Made by a program: the position numbers. From contig JAZBOO010000021.1 in the NCBI GenBank assembly GCA_036351155.1, forward strand, positions 1 to 16,001: a DNA stretch of 16,001 bases, read 5' to 3'. Below, piece by piece: positions 6,001-12,000 of this stretch. The stretch is from Candidatus Krumholzibacteriia bacterium. GTDB lineage: Bacteria > Krumholzibacteriota > Krumholzibacteriia > LZORAL124-64-63. Each line of letters opens with the position of its first letter. Position 1 is the stretch's first letter.

Positions 6001-9000
6001 ACCTGCGCACCAATGATTGACTGAGCATATGATACTCCTGTGCTCTGCTGAATTTGGCCATGGTTTAGTCAAATGGGATTGTATCTCCTGGTGTTTCCTG
6101 GTTCAACTCATTGCTCATATTCCATGGTCGGCTTCGCACCCAGGAAGCAACGGAGTACCCCCATGGCCACGATCCATCTGGCCAACCGGATGCCCGGCCG
6201 GAAGTAAAAAGCCGGTCCGGGCCTAACCCGAACCGGCCGTACAGCTGGTAGCTTTCTCTAGTTCACCGTTTCCTTCGCCTTGATTTGCGCCAGCATTTCG
6301 GCGCCCGTAGGACTCTCCGGGTTCAGCTCCAGAGACTTTTCATACATGGCAATGGCTTCCATGTTATCGCCCATGGCATACAGGGCTTCGCCCAGGCTGT
6401 CGTACACATTCCACGAATCCGGAAACAACTCCACGTTGATGCGGAACATGGTCACTGCCTGTGCCGGCCGATCAGTTTGCAGGAAGTGATAACCATAAGT
6501 GTTGATCTGGGATTCCTGGAAGTAATGGGTCGGTTTGTCGGCCTTGTGCTGGGCCACGATATTCCGGATGGCAGACTCGTCAGCCCCTTCCTCCAGCAGA
6601 GCAAAGAGGGCCGGAGCCGCAGCCTCCTGGCCGGTGACCGCAGCCCACATCTCGGTCATGGTGGTGGTGTTGTTCCCCTGGCTGCAGCCCGGGCTGTCCA
6701 CCAGCTCGGGAAAACGATCAGCCAGGGTGTAGCTGGTGAGATACTCGGCAAGGCTGGCATGGTCCAGGGCGGCCTGGTGGGCGCCTTCCCAAAGGGCCTC
6801 CACGTACTTCACCCGGTTCTCGAAGCCGTCGAAAGTCAATTCGCCATTCCAGTGTCCGGGAATGAGGGTGCGGATTTCGTCTTTCCGCGCCAGCAGGGTG
6901 TTCCAGTTCTTGAGCAGCAGGGGAAAGTCGTGCTGGACCCCGGGCCGGGCGATGAACGAGGCCAAACAGCCGGGCGTGTCGGTGAGCCAGACATCGGCCA
7001 TGGTATCCCCCGTCATGAGCAACCCGTGTTCAGGTACCAGAATGGCGATGTCGCTGTCCGAGTGCATCCCGCCGATGTAATACATCTCGAATGTGGTGTC
7101 CCCCATTTTCAGGACCTTGCGATCCTTGAAGGTCTGGGTCGGGACCACGAGGGGATTGTTGGCCTGGGCTGCTTCCAGTACCATGCGGTTGAGGGTCAGG
7201 TTTTCCTCGAGCGCGGCCCGTTGTGGCGCGTCGGCAGCCATGGCCGCCAGCTCAGATTCCTGTTCTGCCACCCGGGTGGTCAGCCAGTCCACCATGCGCT
7301 GCAGTTGCTCCGGATCGCGATTCATGCCTGCGGCCACCAGTTCGTGGCCCACGATGGTGCAGTCCTTGTAGACGGCATTGCCGCCGGTATGGTCCTCGTG
7401 CTGGTGGGTGTTGATGAGCACCTTGAAGTCGTCGCGGCCCAGCTCCCGCGCAATGACCTTGCGCAGTTCAGCATCGACCTTGGGGTTGCCGGTGGTGTCG
7501 ATGATCACCAGCCCGTCCGACGTGGGAAAGGCCATGACGGCTGTGGAGGAAACGTGGTCCCCGATCCAGACGCGGATGGCACCCGAATCGTACTTGTGAA
7601 CGTGAAGGGGAAGGCCCGCCACCATTTCGGCGGAGGCACTCGCGGCGGCCAGAATCAGACACAGGGCAAGCAGGGCAGCGGCTCTGGACATGGCATCGAC
7701 TCCTCACTGAGTGGGGAAATCATCAAGTCCGGTGGCCGGGGCACCTCGGGACTGACGGGAACAGGAATTGTTCCAGTGGGAGTATACGGGCTATTGATAT
7801 TTGTGTTTCAAAACAAATGATGCGAGCCATCCTGGAGTAGCTGATGAAGAACTCACCGCACCAGCATCAACTTCTGACTGGCCACCCCGGCGGTCGATTC
7901 AAGACGCAGCAGGTAGGTCCCCGACGGCCCATGGCGGCCATCATTCCCGGTCCCGTCCCAGACCAAGGTCCGGGCACCCGATGGGCTCCACCCCTCCTCC
8001 AGGGTGCGCACCAGACGGCCTGAAAGGTCGTACACGGCCAGCGTGATCCCACCTGGGGCCTCGAGTTCAAAGCTGATGGTGGTCCGGGGGTTGAACGGAT
8101 TCGGTGAAGCCGGATGGAGCGCGATCATGCTCCGGTTAAGGTCCGGCACCGCGGACAGATCCTCCCGCTGCTGCACGACCTGCAACACCAGGAACTCGGC
8201 CGGCAACAGGGGCGCCCATCCCACCTGCATGATGGTGCGTCCCTCGGCGATGTCCAGCTCGGTCATGGTCGAGAAGTCACAGCGGGCGAAGTAGGCGTCG
8301 CTGCCCGTGGTGCCCTGGAACCAGCCCGACAGGAAAAGGGACTGCAGGAATACCTCAAGCTCGCTCTCGATCGCGAACCAGGTGAGCGGTTCGTTGGGTT
8401 CGGTCAAGCACCAGGCCGTCCCCTCGACAATGGACTCTTCGATGCACAGCCCCATGCGCCGCACGGCCACGTATTTCCACTCGGGATCGGTGGCCAGGGT
8501 CCGGGAGCCCCAGATGCGGATGCCCGACAGGTTGCGGATGGCGTTGACACCCAGGGGGTTCAGCTGATCCTGCTCCGGGGTGGTCACCGGGTAGGTCACC
8601 CCCGTGGCGGTGGCGATCACCCCGATGGGGGAATCGTTGGCCTCGGTGGCGCTGAAGGCCCCGGCCACGAATCCGCTGGGCGGCAGGGTCAGGGTGGTGC
8701 CCGTGGGAGAGGCCTCGATCCAGGGAAAATACAGAGCGGCAAACCCCTGGTCAGATCCCAGCAGGGCGCGCTGGGCCAAAATGTCGTTGATGGTGTCGGT
8801 GGGCGCAGCAGGGTCCAGGATCGCGATCCGGTCACCCGCGCTCTCGCAGTGGGCAATCATCGCCGCCTGGACCGCGGGGCTCGCGGCCCCCGGAATCGCC
8901 ACGATGGCAACCTCGTCCACATCCAGCAGCGCCTGCAACCCTGTCCGGGAACCGGGGCCGCCGTCGAACCCGATGAGGGTGGGGTCATCGGCGGCGCTCA

Positions 9001-12000
9001 CCCGCACCACCGCACACCGCACGCCGCCGTTGGCAAAAAACCCGGCCACCGAGGGGGCCAGATAGGGGTTGGTCAGCCCGGCGGTCGAGGCCCCGAACAC
9101 CGCCACGAACTCGGCGTAGCTGTCCAGCAGGACCGCCTCGTCCAGGGGGCCTTGTTCGGCCATCCCCACGAATCCCGCCTGCTCGGTGGGCACGCGGGAA
9201 ATGGGGACAGCAAGGGCGGGATACGCCGACACGAGCAGCAGAAGCAACAGGGCGAAGGATTTCATGATTCTTCCGATTCCGGGGTGATGGCCAAGGTCGA
9301 TGAACCCTGATGATACCACAACCGGAGAATTTTGGTCGGCTATTTCAGATCAAAGCCGGCAGCCAGGAGCTGCTCCTGGATCGCTTTGACCACCGCATCG
9401 CCCAGGGTCGCCTCGCCGGTCTCCTCCGCCTTCTTCAGCCGTTCCGCCTCCAGAAATTTTTCTCGCGCGACGGAAAGCTCGCCGATCTTCTTTCTCAGCT
9501 CCGCCCTCTGGGCGGCCACTTCCTGCAGGTGGATCTTGCGCTCCTCGGCAGTCATTTCCTGCATCTCATCGGGCAGCTCCTGGTCGGAAACCTTGGCCAG
9601 GATATCCGCATCACTTTCCAGGGCATCCACCAGGTCGCGGCTGCGGTTGTCGTACATCTTGCTGGATTTGGTGACCGACCGACTGACCGCCACCGAAGAA
9701 GACAGCTTGCCGGCATTGGCGTCCTGAGCCGCCTGGTTGCTCAAGTAATACTCCCGCTTTTCACGCGAGCCATACCAGAGGTAAGTGGCGTTCAGGTCCT
9801 CGTTCAGCCGCATGATGTCCTGGTCCTGGGGACAGGGAATGGGGGCCACCACCCGGTCCTGATCGATGTTAAAGTACTTCCCATGACCCAGCATGGCACC
9901 GTGCTGCCATTTCCCTTTGATGCCCTCCTGGTTCGGACCGCAGTGGATGGTGTTGACGACAACCCCCTGCCCCACCGCCCGCTCGCAGGAATTCTTGTAA
10001 TACACTCCGCCCTGGGTGAAGGGCTCATTCCCGGCAATGAATATGGCCCGGTAGGCGCCCGACCTTTCGGACCAGTCCAGTCGGGTGATCGCCTCGTCGA
10101 TGACCTGCCCGCAATACTCGTCGCCGCCTTGAGTGGTCAGGGAAAACAGGGCCTCCGAGAGGGCGTCCAGATCGTCGGTCAGCGGAACCACCTGGCGCAG
10201 GTAACCTTCATTCACCGGCAGATTGGTGTTGCCGTACTCGAACAGAGCCACCCTCAGGAACGGAGCCTGGTGGTACTTCCGCGCACGGGCAAACTGCTGC
10301 ACGATGGTCCAGAGCTGGCTCTTGGCCTGGCTGATGAGGCCGTCCATGGAGTTGGAGGTGTCCAGGAGAAGGGCCACGTCCACCATCGCATGGTCCCGGG
10401 GAGCCGAACGCGCTGTCGAGGTGGAGGGAAGAGTCGTGATCGCCATCGCCATCGTCAGGATGATGGCCGGGTAGAATGCTTTAGAAATTTGCAATGTGGG
10501 ACCTCCCCCAATGAGAACGGATGTGAGGGAGGTGGTTACCCCGCGGTGGCGTATCGGGTTCCCGTTTTAGGATTGGGGTTTCAATTGAGGGAGTCAAGGA
10601 CACCTGGTTTTCGGGGACCAGTCCTGAAAACAAAAACGACCTGCATTGCTGCAAGTCGTTTCTGCTCTTAAATTTATTTGGTACGCCGCCAGGGAATCGA
10701 ACCCCGAATCTATCGACTTAGGGGCACGCCGGCACTACATTGTGCTACCGCTACCTGCCACAACCACCGAATTACGGGCACCCGCAGGGCAAAAGCTCTA
10801 TTTTCGCGACTTGGCTGAGCCAACACATCCTCTAGTCCCTGAAGGCGACCAAGGTCATCTGAACCGCCATGCATGGCCAGCACCTGCAGCGCCCAAAACA
10901 GCCGTATCGTATCGGTTTCATATCTCCCCACAAGCCTCCCCTTCTCCACGATGCCATCAACGGCCCGGCGACAATAGTCCAATACCCCATTCTGGTTTCC
11001 GTGGCGAGATAGTTCCCTGGCCACGAAGCGCAATAGGTCTGGATGGATGTCCTCACGGACAGCCAATTCAATCAGCATAGCAACGTCAGAACCATTGACC
11101 CGAATCCCCACCCAAGGCAAAATGGGATGACTTCCAGGAATCCGCGTAGCCCAAGGAGGCCCAGTTAGACCTGCAGGGCGTCCGGGGGGAGTCCCAACAA
11201 TTGATTCCAACTCCTCAGGCGAAGGACGGGGCTGATAGTAGAGTGGCGAAGATCCTTCCAGCCATGGCCCTCGGCCGAAGACAACTGTACCCGAGGAAAC
11301 ACCCGCCCACACGGAATCATCAAGTCGGTTCGGAAGTGGTAGTAAAAACTCGTAGTATCCATAAACACTTCCCCGACAAACGACCGTTTCACCTCCGTGG
11401 TTAACGGCTACAAAAACTGCGTGTGCCTTGCCAGCCCCCACTTCGAGTACTTGCCCGGATTGGTACTCTGTAGCAACGTCAATAATTCTCGACATTGGCT
11501 CTTCCGAATTGTTCATACTGGAGTGATTGAAGCAGAGATTGCGCAGTCTGGTTCCGAGACGCTTCAAAAACTTGGCATCGGCATCAGTTTGAGGGTCACC
11601 ACGCAGTTCGCTCTCGGAGATCAGAGCCAACCGGTCCAGTATCTCCATGAATTCCGGGAACCGTCCGTCATCCAATCGGTGTGTTTCTGGGTCAGCCTGG
11701 ATCTGATCCGCAGCCATTTTGTACACACCGATTTCGCGACAAAGGTTGTCCCAGCGATGAGCCTCTTCTTTCAAGCGGCGGTAAAAAAGGGGGAATGGTT
11801 CGACATAGCCCTGGAATTGCGGTTCGGCCATGGAGATGCCCAAATATACGTGGGCACTCTTAAGATATGGCGCAGCAGCATGGCGAGATTCTGCCCAGGC
11901 TCCCAGAGCAGCATTCACCTGCTTGTCTCGCCATATGGGGGACCGGAAAAGGCTGGGAATACCCGCGGGCATATGAAAAAGAGCTTCGTGGCAGTTCCTA

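What a model noticed while it worked through the whole genome (the two positions that open the first line are those of the whole stretch)
7853..9265. Contractile-tail sheath protein turned into a signal-peptide-bearing T9SS cargo
g00215 (470 aa) is a true homologue of the sheath protein of contractile phage tails and extracellular contractile injection systems (residues ~19-371), but it starts with a cleavable-looking signal peptide and ends in a type IX secretion sorting domain (residues ~391-460), and no tube, baseplate or spike gene is found anywhere in the genome. Sheath subunits normally assemble in the cytoplasm; here the fold has been recruited as a stand-alone secreted or surface protein. 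The same sheath+T9SS-tail build recurs in about a hundred database proteins of 460-490 aa, some named from Krumholzibacteriia and Eisenbacteria, so it is a family, not an accident.
Evidence so far: phmmer against PDB: phage tail sheath protein FI 9ezm E 3e-69, 8bky/8bl4 E 3e-64, eCIS sheaths Pvc2 (6j0b), Afp2/3/4 (6rao), pyocin sheath (3j9q) E 4e-13; the C-terminal 391-460 matches FlgD Ig-like chains only. PHROGs: phrog_23 tail sheath E 1.5e-45 over residues 19-371; the three neighbouring genes hit no phage family. Pfam Phage_sheath_1 116-257 and FlgD_ig 397-459; NCBIfam T9SS type A sorting domain over cutoff (tables). N-terminus MKSFALLLLLLVSAYPALA. Pfam table of the whole genome: no tube, baseplate, gp25, PAAR, VgrG or tape-measure family. 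Database search with residues 1-385: of the 120 best homologues (44-93% identity) most carry PF04984/PF17482 together with PF13860 or PF18962. Ful [...]
(Added by a program. Inside this text positions count along the whole contig: contig position 1 is position 1 of the stretch shown here. "Call 12" and the like, gene names such as g00115 and contig names such as C1 are that model's own, and its searches are not shown. The text may have been shortened before it was handed on; [...] marks where a part breaks off. The agent that wrote the report below was given it as the finding of a first reader that could run no searches.)

Follow-up and report, generated by a model that had tools for sequence, protein, structure and literature searches.

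The report
Exported sheath protein without a machine
A protein built like the contracting sheath of phage-tail injection machines has swapped one of its two linking arms for an export signal and gained a surface-sorting tail, so it seems to work alone outside the cell.

Summary
Window 7853-9265 (minus strand) encodes a 470-aa protein with three parts: a signal-peptide-like N-terminus (1-19), a complete two-domain sheath core (about 20-370) and a T9SS type A sorting domain (about 387-470). The core matches solved CIS sheaths (PDB E 3e-69; structural Z 36.5, rmsd 2.1 A).

New here:
- **Lost arm.** The export signal sits exactly where canonical sheaths carry the N-terminal "handshake" arm (M-P-E-Y-L-x-P-G-V-Y-V-E-E). 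That arm is absent in 99 of 99 evaluable family members and present in 133 of 149 canonical relatives.
- **One clade.** All exported forms fall on one side of a single tree branch (SH-aLRT 97).
- **Varied tails.** Within the clade the C-terminal tail varies: T9SS CTD, dockerin-like module, thrombospondin-type-3 repeats, or a short tail.
- **No partners.** In 14 loci from several phyla the gene has no conserved neighbour and no tube or baseplate gene nearby. Seven of 13 carrier genomes in the phylum have neither tube nor gp25.

The host genome has PorU, SprA, a PorV-like gene and about 150 ORFs ending in the same CTD, but no detectable GldM/PorM. Export is therefore well supported but unproven. 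The function (surface coat, adhesin or polymer) is unknown. My searches found no description in print.

The parts
7853..9265 (-). Whole gene, 470 codons plus stop: exported sheath-fold protein (P0001)
   Evidence: Translation; Pfam, NCBIfam and PHROGs; PDB; AlphaFold model with pLDDT 87.2
9209..9265 (-). Residues 1-19, Sec-type signal peptide (K2, hydrophobic core, A-L-A before V20). It occupies the place of the canonical N-terminal handshake arm.
   Evidence: Alignment A1. Of 99 evaluable family N-termini, 98 have a hydrophobic core, 80 have small residues at -1/-3 and 0 have the PGVY arm motif. Judged by a rule of my own; no SignalP was run. The upstream in-frame GTG at 9319 adds no arm-like sequence.
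8156..9208 (-). Residues 20-370, two-domain sheath core, including the C-terminal arm-equivalent strand (about 355-367, LPAEFLVLQVVQQ)
   Evidence: phrog_23 over 19-371. VIA-align Z 36.5, rmsd 2.1 A, 314 residues to 9gts_2A; the globular superposition spans about 24-354. 51 positions are conserved at 85% or more in both exported and canonical clades.
8108..8155 (-). Residues 371-386, linker of low model confidence
   Evidence: pLDDT under 50 at 371-379
7856..8107 (-). Residues 387-470, T9SS type A C-terminal sorting domain (FlgD_ig-like beta sandwich)
   Evidence: TIGR04183 at 32.1 bits against cut-off 23. The same domain gives 150 tblastn hits in the genome, 144 of which end within 5 residues of a stop codon.
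5448..9339 (.). 3.9-kb block (DUF3124 gene 5471-6061, MBL-fold+TPR gene 6258-7691 and the sheath-like gene) that is absent at the syntenic site of a same-genus genome
   Evidence: In G164:C5 the flanking genes (window 1884-5447 and VWA 9340-10494) are syntenic but lie only about 0.9 kb apart

Best explanation
This is a stand-alone, exported derivative of a contractile-injection-system sheath protein. It is not part of a contractile machine. Shown: the core is a complete two-domain sheath fold. The roughly 19-residue N-terminal arm, which canonical sheaths donate to a neighbour, is replaced by a signal-peptide-like segment. The C-terminal arm strand is kept but is followed by a linker and a T9SS-type sorting domain. 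The gene has no tube, baseplate or other conserved partner, either here or in relatives. Inferred pathway: Sec export with cleavage after A19; folding in the periplasm; passage of the outer membrane through the SprA translocon with the PorV-like protein; removal of the CTD by PorU, which leaves the core released or tethered to the cell surface by its C-terminus. Sister proteins reach the same end with dockerin-like or TSP3 tails, so the common theme is a sheath core displayed outside the cell and held by its C-terminus. Without the N-arm, a gp25-like initiator and a tube, it cannot build a canonical contractile sheath. My best guess is that it serves as a surface coat or adhesive module, either monomeric or joined only through the remaining C-arm and lateral contacts.
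For: The arm replacement comes from alignment A1, the N-terminus listings and the counts of 0 of 99 against 133 of 149. The role of the arms comes from passages of PMC10811340, PMC12546770 and PMC8894135. The single clade is the split of 42 exported-type rows from 34 canonical rows, SH-aLRT 97, both with all columns and with residues 31-366 only (76 of the 267 proteins in hand were used). Extracellular tails: the CTD is over its cut-off, TSP_3 scores 30.2 bits against cut-off 25 in P0122, and with the dockerin-like tail profile 9 of the 10 PDB hits are dockerins, best E 0.0016. The CTD acts as a sorting tag in this genome: 144 of 150 copies are C-terminal, and one sits in PorU itself. Machinery: PorU 499 bits, SprA 483 bits summed and a PorV-like gene adjacent to PorU. 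Independence from CIS genes: none in the genome; no shared neighbour across 13 loci; no CIS family among the ORFs that I picked and scanned within 8 kb in L011, L014 and L015, nor on the 10-kb contig L065; 7 of 13 carrier genomes lack both tube and gp25, and where these exist they sit on other contigs or 180 kb away, beside a canonical sheath in three of the genomes. Purifying selection: dN/dS 0.25 and 0.33.
Against: Secretion is not shown. The signal peptide was judged by a simple rule of my own. GldM/PorM was found in 0 of 8 genomes of the genus with three models, GldK gave only partial hits below cut-off, and PorV is below cut-off, so the outer-membrane step is uncertain. The core keeps 51 positions conserved with canonical sheaths, which could mean that subunit contacts are still used. 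The assembly has 405 contigs, so absence of partner genes is not absolute. No function is demonstrated.
Confidence: 0.7

Rival explanations
1. The protein crosses only the inner membrane and acts in the periplasm, or stays anchored by an uncleaved N-terminal helix. On this view the C-terminal Ig-like domain is a binding module and not a working T9SS signal.
For: GldM/PorM was not found (0 of 8 genomes). GldK and PorV are below cut-off. A subclade (P0097, P0099, P0101, P0103) has the signal peptide but no sorting tail. The CTD also scores as FlgD_ig.
Against: The domain passes the NCBIfam T9SS cut-off and is C-terminal in 144 of 150 ORFs of this genome. PorU and SprA are over their cut-offs. 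Sister proteins carry dockerin-like and TSP3 tails, which are typical of extracellular proteins.
Confidence: 0.15
2. It is still the sheath of a cryptic contractile system whose tube and baseplate genes are unassembled or too diverged to recognise.
For: The assembly is fragmented (405 contigs). The core is strongly conserved with working sheaths. Some carrier genomes do have CIS genes.
Against: Five tube or baseplate families give no hit in a genome that is 97.6% complete. No conserved neighbour was found in 13 loci. Where CIS genes exist they sit elsewhere, beside a canonical sheath in three of the genomes. The N-arm is missing and a signal peptide stands in its place, whereas known sheaths assemble in the cytoplasm on a baseplate that accepts both arms (PMC10811340 passages).
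Confidence: 0.05
3. The N-terminus is a mis-called start or a chance hydrophobic stretch, and the protein is cytoplasmic.
For: No signal-peptide predictor was available. An in-frame GTG lies 18 codons upstream.
Against: The hydrophobic core is present in 98 of 99 evaluable homologues at 44-93% identity, usually with A-x-A before the conserved x-P-I. The upstream extension encodes no arm motif. The C-terminal tails are of extracellular kinds.
Confidence: 0.05
4. It is a decaying remnant of a prophage or eCIS that was fused by accident to a CTD and has no function.
For: Distribution is patchy: 13 of 208 genomes of the phylum and 0 of 7 other genomes of the genus. It lies in a small block absent from a sister genome. 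In G029 the gene appears split between two frames.
Against: Frames are intact in 12 of the 13 carrier genomes, though two are cut by contig ends, and in about a hundred database proteins. dN/dS is 0.25-0.33. The forms make one clade with a conserved architecture. 46 columns are invariant across the 22 sequences aligned.
Confidence: 0.05

Closest known systems
CIS sheaths of Streptomyces coelicolor (PDB 8bky, 8bl4, 9gts, 9gtp) and Halogeometricum borinquense (9ezm)
   Same: These are the best sequence and structure matches: E 3e-69 to 6e-64; Z 36.5, rmsd 2.1 A, 40% identity over 314 residues. They share the two inner domains and the C-terminal strand.
   Different: They have an N-terminal arm, an inserted outer domain (query 91 aligns to chain 288 in 9ezm), no signal peptide and no sorting tail. 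According to their PDB entry titles they are parts of contractile injection systems that include a tube and a baseplate.
Minimal sheaths Pvc2, Afp2 and R-type pyocin PA0622 (PDB 6j0b, 6rao, 3j9q), and the 386-aa metagenomic sheaths P0113-P0121
   Same: Same size class (about 350-390 aa) and the same two-domain core. P0113-P0121 are 44-47% identical to the query.
   Different: They begin M-P-E-Y-L-x-P-G-V-Y-V-E-E and end 10-20 residues after the PAEF strand. They have no export signal.
T9SS type A cargo proteins (NCBIfam TIGR04183 / Pfam Por_Secre_tail)
   Same: The layout is an N-terminal signal peptide, a passenger and a C-terminal beta-sandwich CTD. About 150 ORFs of this genome share that CTD.
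   Different: The passenger is a phage-tail sheath fold. I found no report of such a passenger. The host's T9SS lacks a recognisable GldM/PorM.
Phage tail sheaths (for example Bacillus phage BCD7; phrog_23)
   Same: Homologous core: 33% identity, E 3e-25; phrog_23 E 1.5e-45.
   Different: They are more distant than the CIS sheaths. No close relative was found in the viral contig collection.

Membership tests
Contractile sheath protein (Pfam PF04984/PF17482; phrog_23): homology and fold | Sequence homology of the core | tested here: met
   PF04984 at 46.3 bits against cut-off 31.4; phrog_23 E 1.5e-45; PDB E 3e-69
Contractile sheath protein: homology and fold | Two-domain sheath fold | tested here: met
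   Model pLDDT 87.2; Foldseek E 1.4e-28, TM 0.83; VIA Z 36.5, rmsd 2.1 A over 314 residues
Functional sheath of a contractile machine | N-terminal arm donated to a neighbouring subunit (handshake) | tested here: not met
   Residues 1-19 are a signal-like segment. The arm motif is found in 0 of 99 family members against 133 of 149 canonical relatives. The role of the arm is taken from PMC10811340 passages.
Functional sheath of a contractile machine | C-terminal arm strand | tested here: met
   LPAEFLVLQVVQQ aligns with the canonical PAEFVIFRIAQ. Here, however, it is followed by a linker and an 84-residue domain instead of the chain end.
Functional sheath of a contractile machine | Tube, gp25-like initiator and baseplate encoded in the genome or beside the gene | tested here: not met
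   PF06841, PF04985, PF04965, PF04865 and PF05954 give 0 hits in a genome that is 97.6% complete. No shared neighbour was found in 13 loci.
Functional sheath of a contractile machine | Polymerises into a helical tube | not testable with these tools
T9SS type A cargo | C-terminal sorting domain over the curated cut-off, at the very end of the chain | tested here: met
   TIGR04183 at 32.1 bits against cut-off 23, residues 387-467 of 470. Pfam Por_Secre_tail alone is below cut-off (18 against 27).
T9SS type A cargo | N-terminal Sec signal peptide | tested here: met
   K2, a hydrophobic core and A-L-A before V20; the pattern is conserved in 98 of 99 homologues. This is a rule of my own, not a trained predictor.
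T9SS type A cargo | Host encodes the T9SS machinery | tested here: inconclusive
   PorU is over cut-off and SprA is over cut-off. The PorV-like gene scores 94.7 against cut-off 250. GldM was found in 0 of 8 genomes with three models. GldK gave partial hits only.
T9SS type A cargo | Shown to be secreted with the CTD removed | not testable with these tools
   No RNA or protein data; no RNA run listed

The most novel reading that the evidence does not exclude
The exported sheath core still self-assembles, but outside the cell. The C-terminal arm would be kept inert by the bulky CTD (or by the dockerin or TSP3 tail) until the tail is cut off or docked at the surface. Subunits would then link through the C-arm and lateral contacts into an extracellular, tube-less sheath-like lattice or filament. 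That would be a phage-tail part reused as a cell-surface polymer.
Probability: 0.15. Interest if true: 0.9.

Novelty: new variant of a known kind. Interest (0 to 1): 0.7.

Why it matters
Sheath proteins are known only as parts of contractile machines that assemble in the cytoplasm (phage tails, tailocins, eCIS, T6SS). A conserved clade that has lost one handshake arm to an export signal, gained surface-sorting tails three different ways and lives without tube or baseplate would, as far as my searches show, be the first case of this fold leaving the machine.

It has three practical consequences:
- It gives structural biologists a natural "one-armed" sheath subunit with which to test what each arm contributes to assembly.
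- It adds an unexpected passenger to the T9SS cargo list, in phyla where this secretion route has hardly been studied.
- It is a warning for annotation. Lone "tail sheath" hits in metagenome-assembled genomes of Krumholzibacteria, Eisenbacteria or Planctomycetota should not be counted as prophages or injection systems.

Tried and rejected
- **Complex prediction** (two copies of residues 20-385) was not available, so self-association was not tested.
- **RNA evidence:** no RNA holder was listed for the gene, and read laying was not used.
- **ESM Atlas** gave no usable hit.
- **Earlier findings** of this scan held nothing on this place, sequence or theme.
- **Rfam and ARAGORN** found no RNA gene at 13300-14000 or in the window.
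- **Promoter and terminator scan** near the gene gave nothing useful. GC of the gene (66.6%) is only slightly above the flanks.
- **Dockerin tail as a single sequence** gave only weak hits (PDB E 0.21; Pfam none). A three-sequence profile was needed.
- **Metagenome scan with P0099** returned mostly canonical sheaths. Only L064 and L065 were of the exported short-tail type.
- **Viral contig scan** found no relative.
- **Cluster look-up** gave no organism names for the variant proteins.
- **** was a translation in the wrong frame and was not used.
- **The integrase as carrier of the gene** was considered and rejected. The tRNA-Lys fragment beside it marks an element boundary 4.4 kb away from the gene, and the VWA gene lying between them is syntenic in a sister genome.

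
Full report
**1. The observation**

The ORF at 7853-9265 lies on the minus strand and encodes 470 aa (P0001).
- Pfam Phage_sheath_1 at 116-257 and FlgD_ig at 397-459.
- NCBIfam T9SS type A sorting domain, 32.1 bits against a cut-off of 23.
- phrog_23 tail sheath, E 1.5e-45 over 19-371.
- PDB 9ezm E 3.2e-69, 8bky and 8bl4 about 1e-64, then Pvc, Afp and pyocin sheaths. The last 80 residues match only FlgD Ig-like chains.

An AlphaFold model built on a 22-sequence alignment has mean pLDDT 87.2. Confidence is low only in the signal segment and in a linker at 371-379. The model superposes on the Streptomyces coelicolor CIS sheath with Z 36.5, rmsd 2.1 A over 314 residues, and Foldseek gives E 1.4e-28. 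Phage sheaths are more distant: the best is 33% identity, E 3e-25. The core is therefore of the CIS kind.

**2. The N-terminus replaces a structural element**

In alignment A1 the closest canonical sheaths (386-401 aa, 44-47% identical) begin M-P-E-Y-L-S-P-G-V-Y-V-E-E-x-x-x-G-A-K and then P-I-E-G-V-S-T-S-T-A-G-F-V-G. The query begins M-K-S-F-A-L-L-L-L-L-L-V-S-A-Y-P-A-L-A and then V-P-I-S-R-V-P-T-E-Q-A-G-F-V-G. The two segments have the same length and end at the same conserved P-I.

I counted N-termini across 119 family rows:
- 99 had an N-terminus that my rule could evaluate. The other 20 were cut short or my anchor pattern failed.
- 98 of the 99 have a hydrophobic core.
- 80 also have small residues at -1 and -3.
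- None has the P-G-V-Y arm motif.
- Among 149 canonical rows, 133 have the arm motif in the first 45 residues.

Passages of PMC10811340 state that each sheath subunit donates N- and C-terminal arms to two other subunits by beta-sheet augmentation, and that the gp25-like baseplate protein accepts the arms of the first layer. Passages of PMC12546770 and PMC8894135 call this handshake conserved and place tube binding on an attachment helix. The mature protein would thus lack one of the two links of the sheath mesh.

The C-terminal strand (LPAEFLVLQVVQQ, about 355-367) is retained. Structural superpositions end at about residue 354, which is where the arms of solved chains leave the globular body. 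The in-frame GTG 18 codons upstream adds no arm-like sequence.

**3. One clade with several extracellular tails**

The word-indexed search gave 687 homologues. Of the best 120, 96 carry PF13860. The exhaustive search gave 11,934 sheath representatives. Scores drop sharply after a handful of clusters of this architecture, from 308 to 281 bits and below.

Reading the sequences showed further variants:
- **Dockerin-like tails.** A Planctomycetota MAG locus (L015, P0267), P0111 and P0123 have a signal peptide, the core and a tail with two D-x-N/D-x-D-G segments and a Cys-rich end; P0154 has a signal peptide and a C-terminal end with a similar segment, which was not in the profile. With a three-sequence profile of the first three tails, 9 of the 10 PDB matches are dockerins, best E 0.0016.
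- **TSP3 tail.** P0122 carries thrombospondin type 3 repeats, 30.2 bits against a cut-off of 25.
- **Short tail.** P0097, P0099, P0101 and P0103 have the signal peptide and only a short tail.

I built a tree of 76 of the 267 proteins in hand. The rows were 27 with CTD, 10 without a recognised tail (some cut by contig ends), 4 dockerin-like, 1 TSP3 and 34 canonical. All 42 exported-type rows fall on one side of a branch with SH-aLRT 97. The same split and support appear when only residues 31-366 are used, so the trait columns do not drive it. The root was not inferred. The arm motif is present in 133 of the 149 canonical rows, and the arms are described for all previously described CISs in the PMC10811340 passages, so the exported form is most simply the derived one. 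Tail type changes several times within the clade.

dN/dS is 0.25 (window against L011, dS 0.64) and 0.33 (a same-genus pair, dS 0.13). 51 core positions are conserved at 85% or more in both clades.

**4. No machine around it**

The host genome is 97.6% complete in 405 contigs.
- The sheath core is single copy.
- PF06841, PF04985, PF04965, PF04865 and PF05954 give no match.

In the phylum, 17 of 208 genomes match at E 1e-10 or better:
- 13 carry the exported type (over 50% identity), one holds a fragment and three hold canonical sheaths next to tube genes.
- None of the 7 other genomes of the genus has the gene.

Crossing these 13 carriers with the gp25 search (45 of 208) and the tube search (15 of 208) gives:
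- 7 have neither: G000, G022, G023, G125, G123, G137 and G138. The first three are at least 94% complete.
- G109 and G029 have gp25 only.
- G135 has tube only.
- G092, G095 and G108 have both. In G092, G108 and G135 these genes lie on other contigs beside a canonical sheath. In G095 the tube is on another contig and gp25 is 180 kb away.

Clustering all ORFs of 13 loci (up to about 8 kb on each side) found no gene shared beyond the sheath-like gene itself, apart from one same-genus pair. Pfam scans of the ORFs that I picked around L011, L014, L015 and L065 show kinases, HipA, proline dehydrogenase, NDH-2, NlpE, radical SAM and other unrelated genes. The genomes of L014 and L015 each hold one CIS-family hit, on a contig I could not match to that of the sheath gene; no CIS family lies within 8 kb of the gene in either locus.

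**5. Is it a T9SS cargo?**

The CTD passes the NCBIfam cut-off. tblastn with residues 385-470 finds 150 copies in the genome. Of these, 144 end within five residues of a stop codon, and one lies in PorU itself.

The machinery is only partly recognisable:
- PorU: 499 bits against cut-off 420.
- SprA: 483 bits summed against cut-off 200.
- A PorV-like gene next to PorU: 94.7 bits, below the cut-off of 250.
- GldM/PorM: not found in any of 8 genomes of the genus with TIGR03517, PF12081 or PF12080. No control genome had a match over the cut-off with any of these three models, so the negatives have no positive control.
- GldK: only partial hits below cut-off.

The cargo features are met. The machinery is partly recognisable, and export is inferred. 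That PorU removes the CTD and that cargo may be tethered to lipopolysaccharide is recalled from work on Porphyromonas and was not tested here.

**6. Origin in this genome**

In same-genus genome G164 the genes matching window 1884-5447 and the VWA gene 9340-10494 are syntenic, but lie about 0.9 kb apart instead of 3.9 kb. The DUF3124 gene, the MBL+TPR gene and the sheath-like gene therefore form a local insertion or deletion.

The integrase (13917-15155) sits beside a 60-base stretch (13666-13725). In G164 the matching stretch overlaps the 3' part of tRNA-Lys(CTT). The window holds no whole tRNA. This looks like the end of a separate integrated element that extends away from the gene.

**7. 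Reading**

The best-supported reading is an exported, stand-alone sheath derivative displayed or released at the cell surface and unable to form a canonical contractile sheath (confidence 0.7). What it does there is open. My guess is a coat or adhesive module. A bolder reading is a tube-less extracellular polymer whose C-arm is unlocked when the tail is removed; I give that 0.15.

I recall, but did not check, that T4 gp18 and VipA/B can form polysheaths without tube or baseplate. That keeps self-assembly conceivable.

Four full-text searches found no paper describing a sheath homologue with a Sec signal or T9SS tail:
- tail sheath + type IX secretion + signal peptide
- sheath protein / signal peptide / contractile injection / orphan
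- tail sheath + T9SS
- Krumholzibacteri + type IX secretion

In PMC12210884 and PMC9230969 I read only the passages found by term search, and they do not mention such proteins. Supplements were not opened.

Noticed in passing
window 13666-13725 and 13917-15155: A tyrosine integrase (Arm-DNA-bind_3, Phage_int_M and Phage_integrase domains) sits beside a 60-base stretch that is 95-96% identical to sites in other genomes of the genus. In G164 that site overlaps the 3' part of tRNA-Lys(CTT). The window holds no whole tRNA, so this looks like the att end of an integrated element running to the right.
   Followed up: partly
own genome G000 and 7 genomes of the genus: About 150 ORFs end in a T9SS-type CTD, and PorU, SprA and a PorV-like gene are present. 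However, GldM/PorM was not found with three models, and GldK gave only partial hits below cut-off. The T9SS of this lineage may be very diverged or built differently.
   Followed up: partly
window 1183-1527 and 1505-1837 (+): Overlapping pair of a Gp49-like (DUF891, HigB-type) gene and an HTH_3 gene. This is a likely toxin-antitoxin module.
   Followed up: no
window 1884-3323 (-): A second protein ends in the same FlgD_ig-type CTD (479 aa). The rest of it has no family match. It is syntenic in the same-genus genome G164 (51% identity).
   Followed up: partly
window 6258-7691 (-) and 5471-6061 (-): A metallo-beta-lactamase-fold protein with C-terminal TPR repeats and a DUF3124 protein share the 3.9-kb block with the sheath-like gene. 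All three are missing at the syntenic site in G164. Neither recurs beside the gene in other genomes.
   Followed up: partly
window 10710-13439 (-): A 909-aa DUF3160 protein (230 bits). No DNA match was found in the other genomes of the genus.
   Followed up: no
G029:C18:56884-58015: The exported-sheath homologue of this genome is split between two overlapping frames (residues 5-132 and 128-379). This is either a frameshift or an assembly error.
   Followed up: no
G209:C226:4629-4928 (genome of L015): A tail-tube (PF06841) match of 105 bits lies inside an open frame of 1739 aa, which is unusually long for a tube gene.
   Followed up: no
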